Shown here piece by piece: positions 3,165-63,729 of a stretch of 63,833 nt of DNA; within the stretch, counting starts at the first letter, position 1, and the number at the start of each line of letters is the position of its first letter. Both the position numbers and the translations under genes were made by a program. The DNA comes from Eledone cirrhosa (lineage: Eukaryota). Below the pieces are notes generated by a model. That model did no database searches. It had not been told where the DNA came from and saw only the letters and a list, made by a program, of their open reading frames with translations. The DNA lies in the NCBI GenBank assembly GCA_964016885.1, contig OZ024742.1:108934001-108997833 (forward strand), given 5' to 3'.

Positions 3165-4800
3165 TCATCATCGTCACTGTTTAATATCCATTTTTCCACG
3201 CTAGTATGGGTTAGACGAGTTGTCCCATTGAGACAAGACAGGTTAATGACCATGTCTTGTTCATGCAGAACTGATTTAGTTTGGTTTCTATGGCTGGATG
3301 CCCTTCCTAACTCCAACCACATTTACAGTGTATGCTGGGTGCTTTTTGACATGACATCTACACAACCACTTCGCAGTGAGAGCTGGGTATTTTTTGTCAT
3401 GTCACCTACACAACCACTTTACAGTATGGGCTTCAGCAATTTTTTTCGTGGCACCTACACGACCACTTTACAGTGTGGGCTAGGAACTTGGGTGGGATCT
3501 AGGGACTTGTATGAGTGGGGTGTTAAGATATGGGATATTCAAGAGGGAGGGACATGGATGAAGGGAGGGGGGTTAGACAATGACATGTATGGAAGGGGCA
3601 GAGAAAGAATAGTGCATACAAGATGTATGCTTCAACTCATGCACATGGGACAGCGAGTCTTCTGTATTATTGCATAATACCAGAGATCTCGATCCTGTGT
3701 CATTGCTTTTGAGAGGTGCAATTGTCAGCATTTATCATCTCATCTCAAGTCTTCCTAGTCTTCCTACACCATAATTTCAATTGAGGGACTGCACCTTTTT
3801 ATACAGCTATCATACTTCATACGCATCACATCTCCATACCAACACATTCTCCTCTCCTGCACACTGCATCTGATCCTTCTTATTCCCAGTTTCTCTCTCA
3901 GTTTATTTATGCTTTGCTGTTCATGTATATTACTATATATTACAATTACATATCCATAAAAGCATGGAAGCTTCATTTCTTTCCAATCTTCATAGGTCCT
4001 CTGCATACAGCGCCCAAGGTCTCACTGCCATGCAACATTGCTGTTTGTATACATGCATCATACAATCTGCCCTTCATTTTGATTGAAAAACCTTTTTGTG
4101 GTTAGCAACGGTAGTAATTCCCTGAACTTTCTCCATCCCGTTTTCACTCTAGCTACATTACTTTTGGAACACCCACTTCCACTACAAATTTAGTTGCCTA
4201 TGTAACAGAAACTATCAACTATTTCTACTGAGCCCTCTGGGCATTTAAAGCAGTTAGTATCCTGAGGGCTTTTGTAACTTACTGCACCTGTGCAATGAAA
4301 ATATAAAACCTGCATTCTTTCTTTCCACTACATTTCTTGTGTACCCATAGTTTGAATTTGGGGTATATGATGGAATTTCTACCTACTCCTTTCTTGCACA
4401 CTGAGCAAGGCGATTTTCCTGAGGAAATCTGGACCCTGCTATCCTTTCTACATACTTGGACTTTGGTCTTTGCAAAGTTGACTTTAAGACCTTTAGATTC
4501 TAGGCCTTGCTTCCAGGTTTGGAATTTCTTCTCTAGTTCTGCCATAGATTCAGCTATAGGGGTTAGATCATCTGCATACAGAAGCTCTCACAGGCAGCCA
4601 GTCTTAAACTCTTTTGTTATAGCCTGCAGGACAATAATAAATAGTAGAGGGCTAAGAATAGAGCCTTGATGCACTCCTACCTGCATGCTAAATTCTTCAC
4701 TAGAGTTGCTAATTCTAAGCTTGCTGACTGTTCCTCTATACATGACTTGTACTACCCTCACAAGCCATTCATCTACTAGTTTTCTAAGAGCCACAAGAAG
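3165..4800 (-). mobile_element. RTE LINE, 5'-truncated and decayed
   Basis: ORF fragments QVGVHQGSILSPLLFIIVLQAITKEFKTG, LESKGLKVNFAKTKV, CSVCKKGVGRNSI and RRMCWYGDVMR, plus the RTE 3' UTR motif. Confidence 0.85.
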
Positions 4801-25790: not shown

Positions 25791-27620
25791 TATTATTATT
25801 TTTTTCATTTATCTTGCTTTATGTTCATACAAGTTATCACCAAGTCATAACCAGTGACCTCAAGAGACAAGGTCTGCCATGTTCAAGAAAAAACACATAC
25901 ATGTATCTTTATGTGTTTACACTTGTGATATACTGATATTAACAGAATCTTCCTTAGTATATGGGCAGTTCCCTAGTACTATCTTTTGTATTTCTTCTAT
26001 ACGCGGGTTTCCTGGGATTTGGGATAAGTAATCATTTGATCCCTTAGGTATTATTCCCAGAGCGCCTACAACCACTACTATTGTTTTAGTTTTCAACTTC
26101 CACATTTTTCCAATCTCTATTTCCAGATCTTTATATTTGCTCAATTTTTCAAATGTTTTTATAGATACATTCTTGTCTATTGGAACGGACATATCAATTA
26201 GCAGGCATACCCTCTTTTTAAAGTCCTTCAGTATTATATCAGGTCTATTTGCATCTATTTTTCGGTCTGTTTGGATGCTAAAGTTCCACAAGATTGAGAT
26301 GTGATCTTTTTCAAGTATGGGAGGTGGTTGATGCTCCCACCAATTCTTTTGATGGAGCAGGTCAAAATGCTTACACATTATCCAATGTATGTATTGTGCA
26401 GCTCTGTCATGCTTGTTTAGGTATTCAGTTGGAGCTATAGGACTGCACATTGAAATTATATGATCAATGGTCTCTGGTTGTTTTTTACATACACAGCATA
26501 ATGGGTTGCATCCATTTTTTATTATGTTGGCTTGGTAATTTTTTGTTGGCAGACACTGATCTTGTGCTGATATAATCAGTCCTTCAGTCTCCGATTTCAG
26601 TCCAGAGGATGCCAACCACTGATGGGTTAAAGTTTTGTCAACATCAGGATTGTTAGTTCTTTCTGGGTATTTTCCATACAGAGGCTTTTCTTGCCATTTC
26701 TTAGCCAGTTTCTGTAGCAGTTCTTTCTTTGCAGTTACTTTTACCTGCTTTGCTTTTTCTGTATTTTTCATATCAGCAGTAAAGGGAACTTCTGAAATTT
26801 GTAGTTCATTATTGTTTCTATGTGCATCTTTTGTAATGGAGTATGATCTTTTGCTGCTTTCATGTTTCAAAACGAGTTTGATCATCCAATCATGTGATTC
26901 CCTTAGATATGTAGATAATTCAATTGTTGCAGTTTTCAAAGAAATATCTAACTCGATTAATCCACATCCTCCTTCTTTCCTTGGGAGATATATTCTATCT
27001 ATCTGATATAGGATGATGCATTCTCTGCATGGTTAAGAATTTTCTCATTTTTGCATCGAGTTTGCAATTCTCTGTGCTTAACCGGTTGATGACATTGAAA
27101 CTGTAGGTTACTACTGCTATGGCAAGTGTGTTTATGGCATCGATCCTATTCCTTGCATTCAATTCCGTTCTTAAGATTGCTCTTACTCTGCTGTAACATT
27201 CCTTCCTTATCCTTCCCCTCATTATCGAGTGTTTGATTCTGTCTCCTTCACAAACACCTAGAAACTTATAAGTTTCTTCTTGATCAAGTTCTCTTATCAC
27301 ATTCTCCCAATCAAGATTAATGTCTGAACTTTTCAACAGCTCTCCTCTGATGAATGTGGCTTTGGCTCATTTATCTAGTCCAAACTCCATTTTAATATCA
27401 TCACTAAACTGCTTCACAGTGGATAATAGCCCTTGCAGTTCATTACTTTTTGCAAATAGCTTCAGGTCATCCATGTAGAACAAGTGATTAATGGTTTTGT
27501 CATAGACTTTATATCCATGTTTTGTTTCATTGAGCATTTTACTTAATGGTATAAGTGTGATGCAGAATAAAAGTGGCGATAAAGAATCACCCTGAATATT
27601 TCCACAATTAATATCAACTT
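25790..27620 (-). mobile_element. R4/Dong-like RLE non-LTR retrotransposon, better preserved copy
   Basis: RT motifs QGDSLSPLLFC and FYMDDLKLF (27340-27600); the 3' end runs into (TAA)n at 25789-25800. Confidence 0.9.
25917..26939 (-). pseudogene. C-terminal zinc knuckle plus restriction-like endonuclease (RLE) of the R4/Dong element
   Basis: 340-aa ORF with CxxC..ETIDHIISMC, KHD, RPDIILKD, LIDMSVP and KLSKYKDL motifs; frameshifted from the upstream RT. Confidence 0.85.
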
Positions 27621-31240: not shown

Positions 31241-31775
31241 TTAGTTGAAGTCTTGAGGAATTTTTCTTCATTTCCTGTCACAGTGTGTTTATTCTACTTT
31301 ATGAGAATTAAAACTATATTGATTTTATTGATCTTTACTATTTCTGAGATAATTTATCAATGCAACTTGTTCTGTTGATTAATAATAACGAAGGGTTTGG
31401 TTAATTAAGTTAGCCATTTCTATTGTCTCGATTGGTTTATTGATTACCTGATTGGTTTATTACTATCACTTCACTAAACTAACTATCACACCACTAACCT
31501 ACTATCTCTGGCAATAGATTGTACTTATGTCTCTGGCTTCACTATAGGACCTATCACATAACAGATTAACTATCACACCACTAACCTACTATATCTGACA
31601 ATAGACTGTACCTATGTCTCTGGCTTCACTATAGAACATATCACATGACAGATTAACTATCATATCACTAAATTACTATAACTGACAATAGACTGTACCT
31701 GTCTCTGGCTTCTCTATAGAACCTATCACATAACAGATTAACTATCACACTTCTAACCTACTATCTCTGGCAATA

Positions 31776-34643
31776 CAGTGAGCGACAACTGGCCCCCATC
31801 TTCGACGACTTTGAGATCTACGCATCTCTCTGTCAGCCGGGAGGTGGGGGTGGGGTTGCCGTTTTGCTGCGGAAACACCTGGACCTCGTAACATAGATGG
31901 TACATCTGGATCCGGAGGGTTGACTGGTGGTCCTAGACGTTGACGGTAGTGAAGGTGGAGCCTTCAGGCTGGTGGCCACATATGCCCCATCCAGGACACC
32001 GCGGCCAGACTTCTTCAAACGTCTAGAGACTTTTCTGGGAACGTCCCGCTCCCTGCTGTTAGTGGGGGACTGGAATGGAATCCTAGATGCACGTTGAGAC
32101 TATGTGGGAGCATGTCCCGATAGAAGGGGGTGTCACAGCCTCAAACAGTTAATCGGCCGATTTGACCTGGCTGATAGATATCGACTAGATTTTCCGACTG
32201 TGCCACTGTGGACGTGGACTAATCGCAGCGGAACATCTAGATCGTACCTAGATAGGGTTCTAGTTAGAAAGAAGGATAGGGACATGTTAAGCTGTCCACA
32301 AATGTTCATGGTTGCCTATTCAGATCACAAATTAGTGACCTGCTTAGTCAACCTTGACAAAACCCATAGTCAAGGACCCGGCTACTGGAAACTGAACTTG
32401 TCGTTACTGACAGGCAAAGCCTACAGTAGACGGATTAGCACTTTAGTTAAGCAGCACTTGACGGTGGCCATTGTCAACAACAGATGGTGGTACTCTCTCA
32501 AGAGGGCAGTTAGATTAGACTCGATAGGTTTTAGTAAAGAATTAGTGTTAGATAGAAATAAGACCGAAAAGGAACTGGTAGATAAAGTAGAAGAGGCACT
32601 TATGAGTGGCAATGTAGCCAGCGTGCTAGCGACGAGAACGGCCTTGGACCAGTTCTTCGACGCAAAGCATGAAGGCTGCGTTGTCAGAAGCAAAATACAT
32701 GCTCTGGGAAATGAGGGAGCCAAAGCTGTTAGCTGGGCCCGAGTGATGGAGGCGAAAAGTGGCAACAAGTCCACGATTCAGTCTTTGAAGGACCAAAACG
32801 GACGCGTGATACGTGAGTCGAAGCAGATGTGTGCAGCCTTTCAGAGGCACTTTGCTCAACTGTTCGGGCGGGGCGCCGCGCCGGGAGAGGCTATGGATTT
32901 TGGTCCATACCTCGACGGCCTACCGCGACTCTCGGACAGCGAGGCAAAGTTCTGCGAAAAGCCGATTTCAGCCACTGAGATAGAGGACGCGCTGAGCCAA
33001 TGTGGCAAACGCAAATCTCCAGGTCTCGACGGTCTACCTTATGAATTTTACGTAGCAATGCCGGACTTGTTCTCCGGTCTCCTGGAAGCGGTCTACTGCA
33101 ACTGGCAGCAGAACGGGAGAATTCCCAGTCATGTGACCAAGGGCGTAATTACGTTAGTCAGGAAGGACGAGAACAAGGGGGATGACATAGGCAACTTCCG
33201 GCCCATAACTCTGCTCAGCACAGAGTTACAGATTTTGGCCAAGGTGTTGGCAAAGAGGCTGGCGCTTGTCGTCGAAAACCTGGTGGGAGAAGCGCAGACA
33301 TGCGCAATCCCGACCAGGTCCATACATGACAACCTCCACCTCATGCGATACATCATAGAGAGGGTAGGGTGTAAACCCGGCTTCGGTGGGGCCCTGATCA
33401 ACTTGGATTAGTCTAAGGCTTTCGATAGGGTTGAGTATCGTTACCTGGATGTGGTGCTCGAGGCGGCAGGCTTCGGTCCCGTGTTCAGGGGCTTGATTGC
33501 TGCAATGCACAACAGCAACATCTGCTCAAGGGTCAAGGTGAACGGCTACCTCTCGGAGCTGTTCCATATCACGCTATCCATCCCACAGGGATGCCCTCTC
33601 TCCTCCCTTCTGTACGTACTGACTCTCGAGCCACTATTGCGGAAGTTGGAGCTATTGCAGGGCATCCCTTTGGAACCGGGACTGCGAAAAGTGACATGAC
33701 AGTAATGGTGTCGAGCACCTCGCAAATCGGAGGAGATCGGCACCTTACTGGAGGAATACGAAAGGTTCACAGGAGCGAAGCTGAACTGGGACAAATCCGT
33801 CGGTTTGCAACTCGGAACGTGGAGAGGCAAACCGATGCCTTCCGATGACGTCGTCGGACGCTGGACGGAAGGACCGGTAAAGCTGCTCGGGGTCTGGTTT
33901 GGTCCTGTCCTCCAGGTAGAGAAGAACTGGAACGAGGTGACGGCCAAGATGTTTGCGCTCACCCAGAAGTGGGCCGAGTGCAAACTATCCTTGAAAGGTC
34001 GAGCGGAGGTGGCAAACACTTTTATAGCGTCCGTCATCTACTACCGCTTGACCGTTGTGGCTTGTCCAGCCAAAACGCTCACCAATTCGTGAGGCGAGCC
34101 TTCCCACGACTCGTCTCGCTGACCGAGCTGCAGATCTGGGTCAAGCAAAGACCGAGGAAAATGGGCGACTGGCATATCAAGCTCTACAGACGCGAGCGCC
34201 CGGGTAGGGACCCTTCGAAAAAGACCTGTCCGAGATGCGTGCGCGACGAGGAAACCGTCGCGCGTGCATTTGTACACTGCCCGGGCGTTACCGACCTGTG
34301 GGGCTATGTAGAATGACTATTGTCGTGGGTGGGACCAATCTAGTTGACCACCGAGTCCATTATCATGATCAAACCGCCACCCTCCTTCAAAAACGAGAGA
34401 GAGGCGGTTTTCCTATGTGTTATGGCTATGGTGAAAGAGGTTATATGGTGGACGAGGTTAAAAGAGCTGAGGTCAGACACCTTTCTCTCCAGCGAGCAAC
34501 TGATTCGTTTTTTCAAATATCATTTTGGAAGAAGAATCAGAATGGAGAGAGAGGTGCTGTACCCCAGCAAATTTTATAAAAGGTGGGCGAATGTGGCAAA
34601 GTTGGCCCGAGTGGTTGGGCCTTCTCTCTATATAAGCCTGTAG
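31776..34643 (+). pseudogene. L1/Tx1 ORF2 (APE plus RT), disrupted
   Basis: VGDWNGILD, SYLDRVLV, SDHKLV, GPGYWKLN, KSPGLDGLPYEFY, NFRPITLL, LD*SKAFDRV and QGCPLS; has stops and frameshifts, and no YADD motif is visible. Confidence 0.85.
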
Positions 34644-34868: not shown

Positions 34869-36117
34869 TATCTCTGGCAATAGATTGCACTTAAGTTCTA
34901 TAGTGGAGCCAGAGACATATCTCATAACAGATTAACTATCATATCACTAACTTACTATATCTGACAAAAGACTGTACCTATGTCTCTGGCTTCTCTATAG
35001 AACTTATCACATAACAGATTAACTATCATACTTTTAACCTACTATATCTGGCAATAGATTGCACTTATGTCTCTGGCTTCACTATAGAACCTATCACATA
35101 ACAGATTAACTATCATATCACTAATTTACTATATCTGACAATAGACTGTACCTATGTCTCTGGCTTCACTATAGAACCTATCACATCACTAAATTGACTA
35201 TCATGCCACTAACCTACCATATCCATCAATAGAGTGCACCTATCTCTATTGCTTCACTATAGAATCTTCTATCATGTCGCTAACCCACTATATATATCTA
35301 TTGCTTCACTGTAGTATCTTCTATCATACCATTAACCTAGTTTATCCATCATCAACAGACTGTACCTCTCTCTATTGATTCACTATAGTATCTTTTATCA
35401 CTTCACTAATCTGTGGCAATAAACTGTATCTATGTCTGTCACACCACCAACCTACTATCTCTCGCAATAGATTATACCCAGCTCTGTCATATCTCTAACC
35501 CACTATATCCATCAATAGACTGTATCTATTATTCACTATAGAACCTTCTGTTGCATCACTAATCCACTATATCCATGAGTAGTCTACTCCACAAAATTAC
35601 TGTTCAGTCCATTACTTGTTCTCTCTTGTTCCTGTATTTCATCTATCTTCTCATCTTAAACATATCTGTGCTGCAAAAACAGAGTGGATTGCTGCTTCAG
35701 TCCCAAGAGATCTCCAAGGAGCAGTGGGAGTGAGGTTTGGGCCTGGGAGTGAGAGTGCCAAATCTCTTGTGGTTAAAATAGAAACGGAATGGAATCATAG
35801 CTGACTCTCAAGTCTCAGAGGGGATATGTGACAGTGAATAACATTTCCATAGAAGTGTTCTTCAGTTCTTGTTCTTTTCTTTTTTTCTTTTCTTTTTTTA
35901 ACATTTCCATCATGTAACAGTGGAATGGTGGAGAGTGGGGATGGGGGTGAGAAATGAGGGTTGGGTGGGAGTGAGAATAAAGTGAGAAGTGAGCAGTGTT
36001 CTGATGTTGGTTAATCCTTTTGATACCAAACTGCCTGAAACCAGCCCCGGTTCTATGATACAGAACTGTTTATTTTAAAGTTTATATTTATCTAAAAACC
36101 TTCCATTATAATTTTAT

Positions 36118-37869: not shown

Positions 37870-40148
37870 CTACAATGCGAGGACCAAAAACGTGAGGTGT
37901 TCAGGATTGCTTGGCAATGTGTCAAGGAAACTGTGATATTGTTGGGGAGAAGTGTGTCCTTAACGATGATGGTGTACTTGCCATCACTGATGCTGATAAG
38001 AAGGTAGCTTGGAAGTGTCACTATGAAAGGCTACTAAATGAGGAGAATAAATGGGAGAAAGACAGTCTCCCCCACATCGATCCAATAGAGAGACCAGCAG
38101 TGTTAGTCGAAGGTAGTATAATAAGTAAGGCAATGAAAGATATGACGACGAGTAAGGCGGCTGGGCCTTCGGAAATAGTTGCTGAAATGCTGAAAGCTTC
38201 TGGAACGGTGGGACACACCATGGTCACCCGGATAGTAAACCAAGTCATACAGAATGGGGTTGTTCCGAAGGACTGGCATAGCAGCATCATCATTAACTGC
38301 TACAAGGGTAAAGGAGATGCCCTAGATAGGAGTAACTATAGAGGCATTAAATTAATCGACCAGGTCATGAAGGTCACAGAAAAAGTAATAGCGCAACTAA
38401 TCAGAGAGAGAATTGATCTAGATGAAATGCAGTTCGGGTTTGTGTCAGGTAAAAGTACCACAGATGCTCTTTTCATTGTACGACAACTACAGGAGAAGTA
38501 CCTAGCTAAAAGTAAACCCCTATACTTAGCTTTTGTCGACTTGGAGAAAGCCTTCGACAGAGTCCCCCATTCCATTATCTGGTGGGCTCTTAGAAAACTA
38601 GGTGTTGATGAATGGCTTGTGAGAGCTACACAAGCCATGTATAAAGAAAAAGTCAGCAAGGTTAGAATTAACAACGAATATAGTGAAGAGTTTAGCGTAA
38701 AAGTTGGTGTTCATCAGGGCTCCGTTCTTAGCCCCCTACTATTTATTATTGCCCTTCAGGCTATAACAGTGGAGTTCAAGACCGGCTGCCCATGGGAACT
38801 CCTATACGCAGATGATCTAACGCTCATAGCTGAATCAATGGCCGAACTAGAGAAGAAATTCCAAACATGGAAGCATGGCCTAGAATCAAAAGGCCTTAAA
38901 ATTAACCTGTCTAAGACTAAAGTTCTAGTTTGTAGGAAGGAAAATAGGGCACCGGTCCCATCCGGGAAATGGCCATGCTCAGTGTGTAGGAAAGGAGTAG
39001 GGAGAAACTCCATTTTATGTCCCAAATGCAAAGTATGGGTGCATAAAAGATGTAGTGGGATCACAGGTAAGCTAACTAAGAACATAGATTTTATATGTGG
39101 CCGGTGCTCTGGTGCAATAAGTAGCAGCAAGTGCCCACAGAATACTAGCTCATTCCATTGCACAGAGGGTTCTATAGAAATAGTGGACAGCTTCTGTTAC
39201 CTGGGTGACAAAATCAGCAGTGGTGGAGGGTGCTCTGAAAGTACAGTAGCTAGAGTCAGAACTGAATGGAAAAAGTTCAGAGAGCTTATACCACTATTAG
39301 CCGCTAAAGGGTCCTACTAAAAATGAAAGGCAGGCTGTATGATGCCTGCATATGAACAGCAATGTTACATGGCAGTGAGATCTGGGTATTGTGTAGAGGA
39401 TATACGCAGACTGGAGAGGAACGAAGCTTGCATGCTCCGCTGGATGTGTAATAGTAATATACATGAACGGCAAAGCTTAAACGAACTAAGGGAAAAATTA
39501 GAAATAAGGGGGATCAGATGTTGTCTACTCGAGAGAAGACTACGTTGATATAGTCACGTGATGCGCATGAAAGACGACAGCTGTATAAAAAAATGCAGGG
39601 CAATAAAAATAGACGGTAGCCATGGAGTAGGCAGACCCAGAAAAACCTGGGACGACTTGATAAATTCCGACCTCACACACTTACACCTCTCCAAGACAAT
39701 GTCACTGGACCGAGATCTTTGGCACTACACAGGAATACAGAAGACCCGCCTTACCTAAGTACAAAGTGAAACCTACTACAGTCAGTAGGCACCTCTAACA
39801 AAATACATCCCCGTTCGACTACCCCCACCCCATCCACACCACCCCTTTCAATGTAAAGTTATGTTGGTACCACAACATCCAGTCCGAAACAAATGAGGTC
39901 CTGTAGGTGTCACGACAAAAAAACACACAGTCTACGCTGTAATGTGGCCGTGTAGGTAACACGGTAAAAACCTCCCAGTCCACACTGTAAACGTGGTTGG
40001 TGTTAGGAAGGGCATCCAGCCATAGAAAACCCGCCAGTCAGTCCTATGCGAGCAAGACAACCACTCTTGCCTCAAGTGGGAAAACTCCCGTCCAAACCCA
40101 TGCAAGCGTGGAAGATGGACGTTAAACGATGATGATAATGATGATGAT
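37870..40148 (+). mobile_element. RTE LINE, 5'-truncated, relatively young, inserted in (TA)n
   Basis: 469-aa RT ORF, C-terminus RLR..HVMR...GRPRKTW, 3' UTR stem-loop motif, GTTAAAC(GAT)n tail and TA flanks. Confidence 0.95.
37911..39320 (+). pseudogene. RTE reverse transcriptase with a PHD-like zinc finger
   Basis: NYRGIKL, QFGF, FVDLEKAFDRVP, GVHQGSVLSPLLF, LYADDL and FCYLG, plus a C4HC3 motif; frameshift after LAAKG. Confidence 0.9.
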
Positions 40149-40575: not shown

Positions 40576-40884
40576 TATATATATATATGTGTGTGTGTGT
40601 GTATATATTAGCAATATCACTAACATAGCGTGGTTTCATATGCAAAATTTCATATAAAATTTAGCTTATTCTTGTTCCAGTTATGAGTGAGAAAATGTCA
40701 TCAATGATGGCTAAAAACCCAGAAACAGCTGTCTGGCAATCTCACCAGCTACTGAGTTAACTGTGACTTGATCACAGCTTAAAATATTAATTGCAAGAAC
40801 CTTGTATGTTTATTATATATAAACATATCGTATATGCTTTCATATACATCCTATTATATATAAATATTATAAACATAAATATAT

Positions 40885-41980
40885 ACTAGCTCTTTCAATT
40901 GCGCAGAGGGTTCTATAGAAATAGTGGACAGCTTCCGTTACCTGGGTGACAAAATCAGCAGTGGGGGAGGGTGCTCCGAAAGTACAGGATGGAAAAAGTT
41001 CAGAGAGCTTATACCACTATTAGCCGCTAAAGGGTTCTCCCTAAAAATGAAAGGCAGGTTGTATGATGCCTGCATACGAACAGCAATGTTGCATGGCAGT
41101 GAGACCTGGGCATTGTGTGCAGAGGATATACGCAGACTAGAGAGGAACGAAGCTTGCATGCTCCGCTGGATGTGTAATAGTAATATACGTGAACGGCAAA
41201 GCATAAACAAACTAAGGAAAAAATTAAAAATAAGAGGGATCAGATGTTGTTTACTCGAGAGAAGGCTACGTTGGTATGGTCACGTGATGCGCATGAAAGA
41301 CGACAGCTGTATAACAAAGTGCAGGGCAATAAAGATAGATGGTAGCCACGGAGTAGGCAGACCCAGAGAAACCTGGGACGAGCTGATAAATTCCGACCTC
41401 ACACACTTACACCTCTCCAAGACAATGTCACTGGACCGAGACCTTTGGCGGTACTCAGTAATAGAGAAGACCCGCCTTACCTAAATACAAAGTAAAACCT
41501 ACTACAGTCAGTAGGCATCTCTAACAAAATACAACCCCCGTCCCACCACCCCCACCCCATCCACACCGCCCCGTTCAATGTAAAGTTATGTTGGTGCCAC
41601 AACATCCAGGCCGAAACAAATGAGATCGTGTAGGTGTCACGACAAAAAACACACAGTCCACGCTGTAATGTGGCCGTGTAGGCAACACGTTAAAAACCTC
41701 CCAGTCCCACACTGTAAATGTGGTTGGTGTTAGGAAGGGCATCCAGCTGTAGAAAACCCGCCAGACAGTCCATGCTGTAATGTGGCCGTGTAGGCAACAC
41801 GGTAAAAACCTCCCAGCCCCACACTGTAAATGTGGTTGGTGTTAGGAAGGGCATCCAGCTGTAGAAAACCCGCCAGACAGTCCTATGCGAGCAAGACAAC
41901 CACTCTTGCCTCAAGTGGGAAAACTCACGTCCAAACCCATGCAAGCGTGGAACATGGACGTTAAACGATGATGATGATGA
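40885..41980 (+). mobile_element. RTE LINE 3' fragment
   Basis: 186-aa ORF DSFRYLG...LHGSETW...RRLRWYGHVMR...GRPRETW, with a duplicated 3' UTR block. Confidence 0.9.
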
Positions 41981-53261: not shown

Positions 53262-53669
53262 CAGCTGACCATGCCTTGCTCATACAGGAACTGATTTTGG
53301 CTTGATTTCTACAGCTGGATGCCCTTCCTAACACCAACCTCATTTACAGTGAGTGCTGGGTGCTTTTTCCGTGGCGCCTACATGTCCACTTTACAGTGTG
53401 GGCTGGGTGCTTTTTTGTCGTTGTTTGCATTTGGGGCAGAGAATGGAGTTCCTACCTACACCATTCCTACATACTGAGCAAGGCCATTTCCCTGAGGGGA
53501 TCTGGGTTCTGTTTTCTCGCCTACTTACAAGGACCTTAGTCTTTGTCATGTTGACTTTGAGACCTTTTCTTTCTAGTCCCTGCTTCCAAGTTTGGAATTT
53601 CTTCTCTAGTTCTACCATAGATTCAGCTATAAGTGCGAGGTCATCAGCATACAGGAGTTCCCATGGGCA
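53262..53669 (-). mobile_element. RTE fragment with an internal deletion (RT joined to 3' UTR)
   Basis: PWELLYADDL...KWPCSVCRNGVGRNSILCPKCK is fused directly to 3' UTR repeats. Confidence 0.8.
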
Positions 53670-56880
<3,211 letters not shown>

Positions 56881-57116
56881 ATTTAGAAACACACAGATAC
56901 ATGCGGACGCACACATATATACATGAATGCATCCGCACCCAACTGTGAGTTAAGGGTGCCAACTTCACCGATGTTGCTCAATGAATGACTGGGACAGACC
57001 AATTCAGTTTGAACTAGACTGAACCAGTATCAGAGTTAAAAATACATTATGAAGAGAGAAGAAACATTTAGATATAATTAGTAATAAAATGTATCATACC
57101 TAAACTGTTCCTAAAT

Positions 57117-57204
57117 TCCTCGACTACGTAGTTTCGTGGCATAAACAAAAACAATATATCAAAGATATAGAGTCCTTGCGAGGTCTGCCGACTTATCAAG
57201 AGGA
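57117..57204 (-). ncRNA. type I hammerhead ribozyme, U3:A8 core variant (copy 1)
   Basis: Reverse complement of 60900-60987. Confidence 0.8.
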
Positions 57205-57707
57205 TACCTCATTTTACTAGTCTCAAGAACGCGTCTACACGACGTGAGAAAGAATCCCAAAAGGCGGAGGGGGAGATAGTCACGCGATATAACGGTCGAG
57301 AAACAGAGCTAAGCCTCTTATAACCACGAAGAAAATACCACGGAGGCGGAGGGGGTATTCATATCGAGGCCGTAGAAGAGGTAGTGAAGAAGGCGAGAAG
57401 TATGAGTAATGGAAGCTTTCCAGTTGTCCCCACACCTCAAAGATTGCTCGACCAGAGGGAGTTATTAATATATTTAGAAACACACAGATACATGCGGACG
57501 CACACATATATACATGAATGCATCCGCACCCAACTGTGAGTTAAGGGTGCCAACTTCACCGATGTTGCTCAATGAATGACTGGGACAGACCAATTCAGTT
57601 TGAACTAGACTGAACCAGTATCAGAGTTAAAAATACATTATGAAGAGAGAAGAAACATTTAGATATAATTAGTAATAAAATGTATCATACCTAAACTGTT
57701 CCTAAAT

Positions 57708-57795
57708 TCCTCGACTACGTAGTTTCGTGGCATAAACAAAAACAATATATCAAAGATATAGAGTCCTTGCGAGGTCTGCCGACTTATCAAGAGGA
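57708..57795 (-). ncRNA. type I hammerhead ribozyme, U3:A8 core variant (copy 2)
   Basis: Reverse complement of 60900-60987. Confidence 0.8.
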
Positions 57796-58298
57796 TACCT
57801 CATTTTACTAGTCTCAAGAACGCGTCTACACGACGTGAGAAAGAATCCCAAAAGGCGGAGGGGGAGATAGTCACGCGATATAACGGTCGAGAAACAGAGC
57901 TAAGCCTCTTATAACCACGAAGAAAATACCACGGAGGCGGAGGGGGTATTCATATCGAGGCCGTAGAAGAGGTAGTGAAGAAGGCGAGAAGTATGAGTAA
58001 TGGAAGCTTTCCAGTTGTCCCCACACCTCAAAGATTGCTCGACCAGAGGGAGTTATTAATATATTTAGAAACACACAGATACATGCGGACGCACACATAT
58101 ATACATGAATGCATCCGCACCCAACTGTGAGTTAAGGGTGCCAACTTCACCGATGTTGCTCAATGAATGACTGGGACAGACCAATTCAGTTTGAACTAGA
58201 CTGAACCAGTATCAGAGTTAAAAATACATTATGAAGAGAGAAGAAACATTTAGATATAATTAGTAATAAAATGTATCATACCTAAACTGTTCCTAAAT

Positions 58299-58386
58299 TC
58301 CTCGACTACGTAGTTTCGTGGCATAAACAAAAACAATATATCAAAGATATAGAGTCCTTGCGAGGTCTGCCGACTTATCAAGAGGA
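58299..58386 (-). ncRNA. type I hammerhead ribozyme, U3:A8 core variant (copy 3)
   Basis: Reverse complement of 60900-60987. Confidence 0.8.
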
Positions 58387-58889
58387 TACCTCATTTTACT
58401 AGTCTCAAGAACGCGTCTACACGACGTGAGAAAGAATCCCAAAAGGCGGAGGGGGAGATAGTCACGCGATATAACGGTCGAGAAACAGAGCTAAGCCTCT
58501 TATAACCACGAAGAAAATACCACGGAGGCGGAGGGGGTATTCATATCGAGGCCGTAGAAGAGGTAGTGAAGAAGGCGAGAAGTATGAGTAATGGAAGCTT
58601 TCCAGTTGTCCCCACACCTCAAAGATTGCTCGACCAGAGGGAGTTATTAATATATTTAGAAACACACAGATACATGCGGACGCACACATATATACATGAA
58701 TGCATCCGCACCCAACTGTGAGTTAAGGGTGCCAACTTCACCGATGTTGCTCAATGAATGACTGGGACAGACCAATTCAGTTTGAACTAGACTGAACCAG
58801 TATCAGAGTTAAAAATACATTATGAAGAGAGAAGAAACATTTAGATATAATTAGTAATAAAATGTATCATACCTAAACTGTTCCTAAAT

Positions 58890-58977
58890 TCCTCGACTAC
58901 GTAGTTTCGTGGCATAAACAAAAACAATATATCAAAGATATAGAGTCCTTGCGAGGTCTGCCGACTTATCAAGAGGA
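58890..58977 (-). ncRNA. type I hammerhead ribozyme, U3:A8 core variant (copy 4)
   Basis: Reverse complement of 60900-60987. Confidence 0.8.
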
Positions 58978-59480
58978 TACCTCATTTTACTAGTCTCAAG
59001 AACGCGTCTACACGACGTGAGAAAGAATCCCAAAAGGCGGAGGGGGAGATAGTCACGCGATATAACGGTCGAGAAACAGAGCTAAGCCTCTTATAACCAC
59101 GAAGAAAATACCACGGAGGCGGAGGGGGTATTCATATCGAGGCCGTAGAAGAGGTAGTGAAGAAGGCGAGAAGTATGAGTAATGGAAGCTTTCCAGTTGT
59201 CCCCACACCTCAAAGATTGCTCGACCAGAGGGAGTTATTAATATATTTAGAAACACACAGATACATGCGGACGCACACATATATACATGAATGCATCCGC
59301 ACCCAACTGTGAGTTAAGGGTGCCAACTTCACCGATGTTGCTCAATGAATGACTGGGACAGACCAATTCAGTTTGAACTAGACTGAACCAGTATCAGAGT
59401 TAAAAATACATTATGAAGAGAGAAGAAACATTTAGATATAATTAGTAATAAAATGTATCATACCTAAACTGTTCCTAAAT

Positions 59481-59568
59481 TCCTCGACTACGTAGTTTCG
59501 TGGCATAAACAAAAACAATATATCAAAGATATAGAGTCCTTGCGAGGTCTGCCGACTTATCAAGAGGA
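59481..59568 (-). ncRNA. type I hammerhead ribozyme, U3:A8 core variant (copy 5)
   Basis: Reverse complement of 60900-60987. Confidence 0.8.
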
Positions 59569-60071
59569 TACCTCATTTTACTAGTCTCAAGAACGCGTCT
59601 ACACGACGTGAGAAAGAATCCCAAAAGGCGGAGGGGGAGATAGTCACGCGATATAACGGTCGAGAAACAGAGCTAAGCCTCTTATAACCACGAAGAAAAT
59701 ACCACGGAGGCGGAGGGGGTATTCATATCGAGGCCGTAGAAGAGGTAGTGAAGAAGGCGAGAAGTATGAGTAATGGAAGCTTTCCAGTTGTCCCCACACC
59801 TCAAAGATTGCTCGACCAGAGGGAGTTATTAATATATTTAGAAACACACAGATACATGCGGACGCACACATATATACATGAATGCATCCGCACCCAACTG
59901 TGAGTTAAGGGTGCCAACTTCACCGATGTTGCTCAATGAATGACTGGGACAGACCAATTCAGTTTGAACTAGACTGAACCAGTATCAGAGTTAAAAATAC
60001 ATTATGAAGAGAGAAGAAACATTTAGATATAATTAGTAATAAAATGTATCATACCTAAACTGTTCCTAAAT

Positions 60072-60159
60072 TCCTCGACTACGTAGTTTCGTGGCATAAA
60101 CAAAAACAATATATCAAAGATATAGAGTCCTTGCGAGGTCTGCCGACTTATCAAGAGGA
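60072..60159 (-). ncRNA. type I hammerhead ribozyme, U3:A8 core variant (copy 6)
   Basis: Reverse complement of 60900-60987. Confidence 0.8.
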
Positions 60160-60899
60160 TACCTCATTTTACTAGTCTCAAGAACGCGTCTACACGACGT
60201 GAGAAAGAATCCCAAAAGGCGGAGGGGGAGATAGTCACGCGATATAACGGTCGAGAAACAGAGCTAAGCCTCTTATAACCACGAAGAAAATACCACGGAG
60301 GCGGAGGGGGTATTCATATCGAGGCCGTAGAAGAGGTAGTGAAGAAGGCGAGAAGTATGAGTAATGGAAGCTTTCGAGGAATTTAGGAACAGTTTAGGTA
60401 TGATACATTTTAGGTATGATACATTTTATTACTAATTATATCTAAATGTTTCTTCTCTCTTCATAATGTATTTTTAACTCTGATACTGGTTCAGTCTAGT
60501 TCAAACTGAATTGGTCTGTCCCAGTCATTCATTGAGCAACATCGGTGAAGTTGGCACCCTTAACTCACAGTTGGGTGCGGATGCATTCATGTATATATGT
60601 GTGCGTCCGCATGTATCTGTGTGTTTCTAAATATATTAATAACTCCCTCTGGTCGAGCAATCTTTGAGGTGTGGGGACAACTGGAAAGCTTCCATTACTC
60701 ATACTTCTCGCCTTCTTCACTACCTCTTCTACGGCCTCGATATGAATACCCCCTCCGCCTCCGTGGTATTTTCTTCGTGGTTATAAGAGGCTTAGCTCTG
60801 TTTCTCGACCGTTATATCGCGTGACTATCTCCCCCTCCGCCTTTTGGGATTCTTTCTCACGTCGTGTAGACGCGTTCTTGAGACTAGTAAAATGAGGTA

Positions 60900-60987
60900 T
60901 CCTCTTGATAAGTCGGCAGACCTCGCAAGGACTCTATATCTTTGATATATTGTTTTTGTTTATGCCACGAAACTACGTAGTCGAGGA
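60900..60987 (+). ncRNA. type I hammerhead ribozyme, U3:A8 core variant (copy 7)
   Basis: Stem I TCCTC/GAGGA; core TTGATAA (60905-60911); stem II GTcGGCA/TGCCAC; GAAA (60969-60972); stem III ACTA-CG-TAGT; GTC with predicted cleavage after 60982. Confidence 0.8.
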
Positions 60988-61490
60988 ATTTAGGAACAGT
61001 TTAGGTATGATACATTTTATTACTAATTATATCTAAATGTTTCTTCTCTCTTCATAATGTATTTTTAACTCTGATACTGGTTCAGTCTAGTTCAAACTGA
61101 ATTGGTCTGTCCCAGTCATTCATTGAGCAACATCGGTGAAGTTGGCACCCTTAACTCACAGTTGGGTGCGGATGCATTCATGTATATATGTGTGCGTCCG
61201 CATGTATCTGTGTGTTTCTAAATATATTAATAACTCCCTCTGGTCGAGCAATCTTTGAGGTGTGGGGACAACTGGAAAGCTTCCATTACTCATACTTCTC
61301 GCCTTCTTCACTACCTCTTCTACGGCCTCGATATGAATACCCCCTCCGCCTCCGTGGTATTTTCTTCGTGGTTATAAGAGGCTTAGCTCTGTTTCTCGAC
61401 CGTTATATCGCGTGACTATCTCCCCCTCCGCCTTTTGGGATTCTTTCTCACGTCGTGTAGACGCGTTCTTGAGACTAGTAAAATGAGGTA

Positions 61491-61578
61491 TCCTCTTGAT
61501 AAGTCGGCAGACCTCGCAAGGACTCTATATCTTTGATATATTGTTTTTGTTTATGCCACGAAACTACGTAGTCGAGGA
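61491..61578 (+). ncRNA. type I hammerhead ribozyme, U3:A8 core variant (copy 8)
   Basis: Same sequence as 60900-60987; predicted cleavage after 61573. Confidence 0.8.
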
Positions 61579-61650
61579 ATTTAGGAACAGTTTAGGTATG
61601 ATACATTTTATTACTAATTATATCTAAATGTTTCTTCTCTCTTCATAATG

Positions 61651-62396
<746 letters not shown>

Positions 62397-63018: not shown

Positions 63019-63729
63019 CATCATCATCATCATCATCATCATCGTTTAACATCCGTGTTCCATGCTTGCATGGGTTTGGACGGGAGTTTTCCCACTTGAG
63101 GCAAGAGTGGTTGTCTTGCTCGCATAGGACTGTCTGGCGGGTTTTCTACAGTTGGATGCCCTTCCTAACACCAACCACATTTACAGTGTGGGGCTGGGAG
63201 GTTGTTACCGTGTTGCCTACACGGCCACATTACAGCGTGGACTGTCTGGCGGGTTTTCTACAGCTGGATGCCCTTCCTAACACCAACCGCATTTACAGTG
63301 AGGGACTGGGAGGTTTTTACCGTGTTGCCTACACGGTCACATTACAGCGTGGACTGTGTTTTTTTTTGTCGTGACACCTACACGATCTCATTTGTTTCGG
63401 CCTGGATTTTGTGGCACCAACATAACTTTACATTGAAAGGGGCGGGGTGGTGGGACGGGGGTGTATTTTGTTAGAGATGCCTACTGCTGTAGTAGGTTTT
63501 ACTTTGTATTTAGGTAAGGCGGGTCTTCTCTATTACTGAGTACCGCCAAAGCTCTCGGTCCAGTGACATTGTCTTGGAGAGGTGTAAGTGTGTGAGGTCG
63601 GAATTTATCAGCTTGTCCCAGGTTTTTCTGGGTCTGCCTACTCCGTGGCTACCGTCTATCTTTATTGCCCTGCACTTTGCTATACAGCTGTCGTCTTTCA
63701 TGCACATCACGTGACCATACCAACGTAGC
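63019..63729 (-). mobile_element. RTE LINE 3' fragment within (TA)n
   Basis: Near-identical reverse complement of 41265-41980. Confidence 0.9.

What the first reader, a model, noticed from the sequence alone, without database searches (positions are those of the whole stretch)
60900..60987. Hammerhead with a compensated non-canonical core (UUGAUAA, U3:A8) and a palindromic stem III
Seen: UCCUC-UUGAUAA-GUcGGCA-(~44 nt)-UGCCAC-GAAA-CUACGUA-GUC^GAGGA. All three stems pair and the site is GUC. The core differs from CUGANGA at exactly positions 3 and 8. Known: C3 and G8 form a Watson-Crick pair in the active hammerhead, and the compensatory U3:A8 swap retains activity. The double change therefore suggests selection for function rather than decay. 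Stem III ACUACGUAGU is self-complementary with only a 2-nt loop, the signature of hammerheads that cleave as dimers, which suits a tandem transcript. Loop II is unusually large and holds two small hairpins (CCU-CGCA-AGG and UAUC-UUU-GAUA). Stem I may extend through UAGUAAAAUG/CAUUUUAUUA. A search for CUGANGA would miss this motif.
Basis: partly seen in the sequence, partly recalled or inferred. Interest (0 to 1): 0.88.

Follow-up and report, generated by a model that had tools for sequence, protein, structure and literature searches.

The report
Hammerhead in a Penelope-type retrozyme
This is a predicted self-cutting RNA motif, with a core swap already known from nature, in every 591-base unit of an abundant non-coding jumping repeat, and the genomic copies look as if each insertion was copied round and round from one small, likely circular, RNA.

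Summary
The motif is real: stems I-III, the U3:A8 core and GUC are at 60900-60987. It is one of 8 copies in a two-armed array of 591-bp units inside (TA)n; 6,335 copies match genome-wide. The element works like a non-LTR retrozyme (non-autonomous Penelope-like element, PLE). U3:A8 is published for PLE hammerheads, and three autonomous PLE families here share it. Corrections: loop II is one long hairpin, not two small ones; a 6-bp pseudoknot is predicted; a dimer is possible, not shown. Across subfamilies about 18% apart the ribozyme has 0 of 57 fixed changes (19 sites fixed by my search); covariation is not significant. More interesting than the core: copies end at two fixed sites, and 26 of 28 two-armed insertions use one site per arm. 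Two A-to-G haplotypes occur at one locus each, in all units (7 of 7 across both arms; 2 of 2), which points to rolling-circle copying of one edited RNA. Cleavage, circles and expression are untested. The scan noted the same design in other families of this genome.

The parts
56877..61653 (.). Whole insertion: two arms of 591-bp units joined 5' to 5', 3' ends pointing outward
56877..60375 (-). Left arm, about 5.9 units, all 100% identical; 3' end at terminus T1 (unit position u245; u1 = first base after GUC); six hammerheads at 57117-57204, 57708-57795, 58299-58386, 58890-58977, 59481-59568, 60072-60159
60376..61653 (+). Right arm, 2 units plus 80 nt; starts at u1 (2-nt microhomology TC), has a 16-nt slippage duplication near 60389-60428, ends at terminus T2 (u80)
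60900..60987 (+). Type I hammerhead of the finding (stems I-III, U3:A8 core, GUC)
60905..60911 (+). Core UUGAUAA (U3, A8)
   Evidence: sequence; U-A in 32 of 33 aligned copies
60893..60898 (+). Predicted pseudoknot 5' strand UGAGGU, one base before stem I; can also fold back on stem I (GAGG-UAU-CCUC)
60920..60925 (+). Predicted pseudoknot 3' strand ACCUCG in the internal loop after stem II
   Evidence: 99% of cells paired; outer pair U-A 20, U-G 10, C-G 2 of 32
60926..60958 (+). Long hairpin extending helix II (60926-60932/60952-60958 and 60935-60940/60944-60949)
   Evidence: pair probability 0.98-0.99 for the outer part; 95-98% cells paired
60972..60982 (+). Palindromic stem III ACUACGUAGU and C17; predicted cut 60982/60983
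   Evidence: sequence; self-duplex -12.9 kcal/mol
60992..61062 (+). Hairpin u10-65 followed by terminus T2 (u80), likely a reverse-transcription start
61153..61227 (+). Hairpin u171-234 followed by terminus T1 (u245), likely the other start
61491..61578 (+). Second plus-strand hammerhead copy, the partner in cis if a dimer forms
53669..56882 (.). (TA)n target, left
61651..62395 (.). (TA)n target, right

Best explanation
The motif is a conserved type I hammerhead in the 591-nt unit of a young, non-coding, (TA)n-targeting repeat family that is likely a non-LTR retrozyme moved by Penelope-like (PLE) proteins. Likely cycle: a tandem array is transcribed (inferred); the ribozyme, held by a predicted pseudoknot between the 5' flank of stem I and helix II and possibly helped by pairing of two palindromic stems III, cuts at GUC to give unit-length RNA (predicted); the unit is ligated into a strongly folded circle in which stem I is predicted to be switched off (inferred); a PLE RT/GIY-YIG protein nicks (TA)n and starts cDNA at two fixed internal sites, u245 and u80, one for each target strand (fixed ends shown, enzyme inferred); the RTs run round the circle through the cut site, stop at scattered places, and the two cDNAs join 5' to 5', giving one or two arms of up to several identical units (anatomy shown, route inferred).
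For: Selection on the ribozyme: 0 of 57 fixed differences between old and young subfamilies against 81 of 447 elsewhere; without the 19 ascertained sites, 0 of 38, chance about 0.0005. RNA-level structure: circular unit folds at z -6.9 against 40 shuffles; 16 of 19 fixed changes in predicted helices keep pairing. PLE signature: in 55 loci taken in order along contig C1, 26 of 28 two-armed insertions have u80 at one end and u245 at the other, none has twice the same; single arms end 13 times at each site, once elsewhere. Autonomous RT+GIY-YIG elements of this genome have U3:A8 hammerheads with palindromic stem III, end in (TA)n and show two ends (family A: 3 of 3 inverted loci use one each); family A is young, 146 of 146 scored RT matches at 98-100%. 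Two RT starts define the PLE 'tail' in vitro (PMC11167929). One monomer as template: 75 of 82 arm rows run through the cut site; in 18 of 22 loci no other arm is closer than the partner arm; variants shared by all units of a locus are A>G 13 against T>C 5 on the sense strand, single-unit variants 4 against 8; an A>G haplotype of L146 stands at that locus only, in 7 of 7 units on both arms, one of L144 at that locus only, 2 of 2 units.
Against: No cleavage or circle was observed. Covariation is not above shuffles (score 47 of 500; one pair changes on both sides). The unconstrained fold of the 151-nt region gives stem I only 0.07-0.08 and stem III 0.01-0.02 probability (pseudoknot not modelled). 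5' ends do not single out the cut site: about 16 loci at u1 but about 12 at control position u577, and 0 of 81 at u1 in the ordered sample. No sequence homology to the pseudo-LTR of five PLE families (best 2-3 of 100 shuffles for the old subfamily), so the partner is not identified. The shared-versus-single A>G contrast has p = 0.06 and 8 of the 13 come from two loci. One two-armed locus in the score-selected set has u245 at both ends (L015). 8 of 9 Xenopus retrozyme dimers did not cleave in vitro, and PLE insertion in vitro did not need hammerhead cleavage.
Confidence: 0.75

Rival explanations
1. Same family and ribozyme, but the template is an uncut linear multimer transcribed from an older array; the hammerhead cuts rarely or only trims the 5' end, and no circle is involved.
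For: Unprocessed RNA is the main substrate of a Poseidon PLE in vitro; most arms read through the cut site; 5' ends next to (TA)n fall 28 times at u1-u15 and 6 times at u576-u591 in the 34 loci readable from the first 100 of 430 rows, as a cut 5' end would give.
Against: Independent editing of units in a multimer would not give the same A>G set in 7 of 7 units, and no source locus with that set is in the assembly. Copying with 5' truncation alone cannot lengthen arrays, yet arms of 5-6 units exist.
Confidence: 0.13
2. The RNA is cut to linear monomers and the RT jumps from the 5' end to the 3' end of the same molecule, making multimers without ligation.
For: Explains identical units, read-through and the minority of ends at or just after u1.
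Against: Junctions at the cut site are letter-perfect in all 8 window copies and in 32 of 33 aligned copies at U16.1-C17-G1.1; end-to-end jumps usually leave added or lost bases (recalled from R2 work, no call).
Confidence: 0.07
3. The arrays grew at the DNA level (unequal crossing-over, conversion, snap-back and endonuclease resolution) and the hammerhead is an inactive relic of a PLE terminal repeat.
For: DNA-level growth is the accepted model for satellites. Some inversion centres have the same position on both arms (L143, L150), as snap-back would give.
Against: The ribozyme is invariant across about 18% divergence; thousands of dispersed short arrays with fixed 3' ends and scattered 5' ends; sense-strand A>G bias in shared variants.
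Confidence: 0.05

Closest known systems
Metazoan non-LTR retrozymes (Cervera and de la Pena 2020, PMC7229834, passages and part 3 of 6 read; Li, Clavereau, Pollet 2026, 10.64898/2026.07.22.740005, parts 1-3 of 5 read)
   Same: Non-coding tandem units under 45% GC, one type I hammerhead per unit, thousands of dispersed copies, strongly folded predicted circle, PLEs in the same genome.
   Different: Unit 591 nt (170-400 nt in the 2020 paper, within 51-972 of the 2026 one); U3:A8 core; predicted pseudoknot and long helix II extension in place of the usual loop 1-loop 2 contact; two fixed ends 165 nt apart and two-armed insertions in (TA)n ('inverted', 'microsatellite' and 'target site' have 0 occurrences in the 2020 text). 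circRNA not tested here; no pseudo-LTR homology found.
PLE pseudo-LTR hammerheads, including the U3-A8 variant of Schistosoma Cercyon elements (Cervera and de la Pena 2014, PMC4209133, parts 1-2 of 4 read)
   Same: U3-A8 core, palindromic helix III, 5-bp helix I, bulged helix II, proposed dimer and circular template.
   Different: Not a minimal motif: helix III has two more pairs, helix II is extended, a pseudoknot is predicted; no ORF is attached.
Poseidon PLE of Anolis (Frangieh et al. 2024, PMC11167929, parts 1-2 of 4 read) and PLE insertion anatomy (Craig et al. 2021, 10.1101/2021.04.23.441226, passages)
   Same: Two internal RT starts downstream of the hammerhead, AT-rich targets, inverted 5'-truncated partner copy, tail on one end only.
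   Different: Tail is 165 nt, not 30-40; element is non-autonomous; in vitro both strands used both starts, whereas here the two arms use different starts in 26 of 28 loci.
Pseudoknotted and core-variant hammerheads (Perreault et al. 2011, PMC3088659, passages)
   Same: Natural U3-A8 covariation; helix I-II pseudoknot in about 40% of representatives.
   Different: Here both features sit in one repetitive animal type I motif.

Membership tests
Type I hammerhead ribozyme | Core with 3:8 Watson-Crick pair, G5, A6, A9, GAAA, NUH | tested here: met
   UUGAUAA/GAAA/GUC; U3-A8 in 32 of 33 copies
Type I hammerhead ribozyme | Three helices, helix I open | tested here: met
   96-100% cells paired; conserved, no significant covariation
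Type I hammerhead ribozyme | Helix I-II tertiary contact | tested here: inconclusive
   6-bp pseudoknot, one pair U-A/U-G/C-G; 47 of 500 shuffles reach the covariation score
Type I hammerhead ribozyme | Self-cleavage after NUH | not testable with these tools
   genomic 5' ends inconclusive
Non-LTR retrozyme | Tandem small units, each with a type I hammerhead | tested here: met
   8 motifs at 591-bp spacing
Non-LTR retrozyme | Non-coding, GC under 45% | tested here: met
   no frame of 150 aa or more inside the units; GC 0.419 at 58001-60000
Non-LTR retrozyme | Many dispersed copies, PLEs in the same genome | tested here: met
Non-LTR retrozyme | Accumulates as circular RNA | not testable with these tools
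   only indirect: fold and haplotypes
Non-autonomous PLE derivative | Two fixed 3' ends (tail), inverted 5'-truncated partner, microsatellite target | tested here: met
Non-autonomous PLE derivative | Sequence homology to the pseudo-LTR of an autonomous PLE | tested here: not met
   five families compared; no relative with the same stem III and other stems I or II; families beyond the 150 of 10,596 scored candidates not examined
Autonomous PLE | RT plus GIY-YIG ORF | tested here: not met
   tblastn on retrozyme loci gave EN or RT fragments in 4 loci only, whose link to the units I did not examine
Minimal PLE hammerhead (obligate dimer) | No stable helix III, no tertiary contact | tested here: not met
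   two pairs beyond 15.1-16.1 plus tetraloop; pseudoknot predicted
tRNA-derived SINE | tRNA-like head | tested here: not met
   ARAGORN 0 genes at 56800-61700; a decayed head would be missed

The most novel reading that the evidence does not exclude
Each insertion records one RNA molecule: a single, often ADAR-edited, 591-nt circle is reverse transcribed by two Penelope RTs that start at two fixed sites, one per target strand, and chase each other round the circle (twin-primed rolling-circle TPRT). The U3:A8 hammerhead with its pseudoknot/fold-back switch cuts the nascent multimer and is off in the circle, and RNA edits are written into the germ line in all units at once.
Probability: 0.45. 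Interest if true: 0.72.

Novelty: new variant of a known kind. Interest (0 to 1): 0.48.

Why it matters
The core swap itself is ordinary. The family matters because the circular-RNA route to PLE and retrozyme tandems was proposed in 2014 and the papers read here do not show it; locus-unique A>G haplotypes repeated in up to 7 units on both arms are close to a direct genomic record of it, and the strict one-start-per-arm rule says how the PLE 'tail on one end' arises. A young 591-nt non-coding substrate beside a young autonomous PLE makes both testable in vitro. It also shows that Rfam and CUGANGA descriptors miss thousands of hammerheads in such genomes.

Tried and rejected
Rfam: no match. Sequencing runs: no RNA holder listed; the four runs laid were contigs of unknown kind, so the 620-621-nt closed contigs in X4 and X5 say nothing on circular RNA, since a tandem collapses the same way. 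A loose-end motif of run X6 had 0 matches in the own genome. Looking for an autonomous parent by blastn on 40 GIY-YIG loci, local alignment to five pseudo-LTRs and two exclusion patterns found none. A pile-up of 5' ends at the cut site looked like proof of cleavage but the control at u577 gave a similar count, so I dropped it as evidence. A double compensatory change that I expected by eye in the u171-234 hairpin was not confirmed: 0 two-sided changes. My first helix coordinates (IIc) and the region labels of the 5' half were off by one or more bases; the coordinates given here are the corrected ones, and the pooled count covers u501-532, u572-591 and u1-5. Target-site duplications cannot be read inside (TA)n. 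No promoter was identified. A sequence look-up in earlier findings gave nothing.

Full report
Observation. The letters are as described: UCCUC 60900-60904, UUGAUAA 60905-60911, GUcGGCA 60912-60918, 44 nt, UGCCAC 60963-60968, GAAA, palindrome ACUACGUAGU 60972-60981, C17 at 60982, GAGGA 60983-60987. All stem pairs are Watson-Crick. Rfam finds nothing in the window. My descriptor found 8 hits in the window, all copies of this motif.

Surroundings. The motif lies in a 591-bp unit (u1 = 60983). The insertion spans 56877-61653 between (TA)n tracts: a minus-strand arm of about 5.9 identical units ending at u245 and a plus-strand arm of two units plus 80 nt ending at u80, joined 5' to 5'. The units encode no long frame. 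The genome is a 3.0-Gb animal assembly; its repeats remind me of a cephalopod, which is recalled and was not tested. The 19-nt 5' half of the motif has 6,335 exact matches, the reversed control 0; of the first 100 listed, 99 have U3:A8, one U3:G8, none C3:G8.

Family anatomy. I fetched all 55 loci holding those first 100 matches. 28 have two outward-facing arms: 26 end at u80 on one side and u245 on the other, one at u427/u80, one (old) was not resolved; none has the same end twice (chance 1.5e-8 for 26 of 26 at even odds; the duplicated L174 counted once). The 27 single arms end 13 times at u245, 13 times at u80, once elsewhere. In the score-selected set one locus (L015) has u245 twice. 5' ends are scattered, and 75 of 82 arm rows run through the cut site. 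An older subfamily, about 82% identical, has the same two ends.

Selection and structure. Old (31 loci) and young (42 loci) subfamilies differ at 0 of 57 ribozyme positions and 81 of 447 others. Nineteen of the 57 were fixed by my search pattern; 0 of 38 remains unlikely (about 0.0005). On 33 natural copies stems I-III are 96-100% paired but almost invariant, so covariation is not above shuffles (47 of 500). UGAGGU (60893-60898) can pair with ACCUCG (60920-60925): 99% of cells, outer pair U-A 20, U-G 10, C-G 2. This is the place of the helix I-II pseudoknot that Perreault et al. describe as common and needed for fast cleavage (PMC3088659, passages). The same strand can fold back on stem I; in the predicted circular monomer (z -6.9 against 40 shuffles) stem I is not formed. 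Both ends follow long hairpins, and 16 of 19 fixed differences in predicted helices keep pairing. These folds are predictions.

Partner elements. GIY-YIG frames are abundant (10,596 candidates, 150 scored). Among 40 loci examined, family A (L051; RT and GIY-YIG) has terminal repeats with a U3:A8 hammerhead and palindromic stem III, ends in (TA)n at two sites 68 nt apart, one per arm in 3 of 3 inverted loci. Families B and C also read as U3:A8, family E as canonical (read by eye). Family A is young. A cysteine cluster between RT and EN suggests the Neptune or Nematis type (definition; no tree made). No family is homologous to the unit, so the mobilising protein is inferred from shared behaviour only.

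Template. Arms of one locus are each other's closest match in 18 of 22 cases. Following a lead from earlier findings on RNA-editing scars, I counted variants in 47 loci (seven divergent or complex loci, an old fragment and the duplicate of L174 left out): those present in all units of a locus are A>G 13, T>C 5 on the sense strand (p 0.005 after composition), single-unit ones 4 and 8; the contrast has p 0.06. The A>G haplotype of L146 occurs 7 times in the genome, all at that locus, on both arms; that of L144 twice, both at that locus. The simplest reading is that one edited monomer was copied several times, as a circle would be. A source on another haplotype, in a gap or lost since cannot be excluded, nor RT errors as the origin of the A>G changes.

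Cleavage in vivo. The right arm of the window starts at u1, about 16 loci have clean junctions there, and TA-flanked 5' ends favour u1-u15 over u576-u591 by 28 to 6 (34 loci read from the first 100 of 430 rows). But about 12 clean junctions also lie at u577 (a shorter pattern that also catches old copies), and 0 of 81 ordered arms start at u1. This is inconclusive; stalls at structure would look the same.

Known and new. U3-A8 is published in nature and in PLE hammerheads (PMC4209133), with the dimer model and the proposal of circular templates. Non-LTR retrozymes and their PLE origin are published (PMC7229834; 10.64898/2026.07.22.740005). Two RT starts and the one-ended tail are published for autonomous PLEs (PMC11167929; 10.1101/2021.04.23.441226). 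In six searches (listings only beyond the six papers named) I saw no report of this family, of a pseudoknotted U3:A8 retrozyme hammerhead, or of single-molecule haplotypes across tandem units. Supplements were not read and may list such motifs; subscription papers are not in the library (a 2017 study of PLE hammerhead dimers is recalled only). Earlier notes of this scan describe two-armed and edited retrozyme families of 310 and 467 bp in this genome; they are AI notes, not support.

Verdict. A real, conserved hammerhead; the compensated core is ordinary; the element is a new variant of the retrozyme kind. My odds: family assignment 0.9, active cleavage 0.75, circular template 0.65, obligate dimer 0.3. 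Interest 0.48, carried by the mechanism evidence rather than the core.

Noticed in passing
L230 (reverse strand, about 871-958); also L059, L060, L228, L231, L234: PLE family A seems to have two overlapping frames: many copies show a 775-aa RT-EN frame overlapped by an upstream frame, with a U UUU UUA heptamer in the phase for a -1 ribosomal frameshift and a weak hairpin about 8 nt downstream. Endonuclease-bearing PLEs are described as single-ORF; L051 has the frames fused.
   Followed up: partly
L067, L063, L057, L048 (PLE family B): Terminal hammerhead reads UUGAAAA ... GCAA or UCAA instead of GAAA, a second core change beside U3:A8 (by eye).
   Followed up: no
L061:8068 and 8579: Two canonical-core hammerhead matches 511 bp apart with palindromic stem III: probably another retrozyme family.
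   Followed up: no
L040:1035, L053:9328, L063:5639, L064:2990: A recurring CUGAAGA hammerhead-like motif near unrelated loci, likely a further abundant repeat.
   Followed up: no
window 60389-60428 and L146 about 4533-4562: The same kind of 16-nt duplication just after the cut site occurs in two independent loci, suggesting an RT slippage hot spot.
   Followed up: no
L070:4061-6970: Three insertions of two subfamilies lie side by side in one (TA)n tract; L168 and L194 also pair old and young copies.
   Followed up: no
L081, L084: Both arms stop at u1 and join there, giving a palindrome centred on the predicted cut site.
   Followed up: partly
window 53669-56882: A 3.2-kb (TA)n tract whose interruptions switch between TTA and TAA polarity in blocks.
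   Followed up: no
window 25917-27032, 32098-33411, 37896-39320, 40879-41484: Open frames that look like fragments of LINE-type reverse transcriptases (recalled likeness, not searched).
   Followed up: no
window 31480-31775 and 34918-35264; 41653-41888 and 63127-63357: Two pairs of related minisatellites (87-bp and 112-bp units) recur far apart in the window.
   Followed up: no
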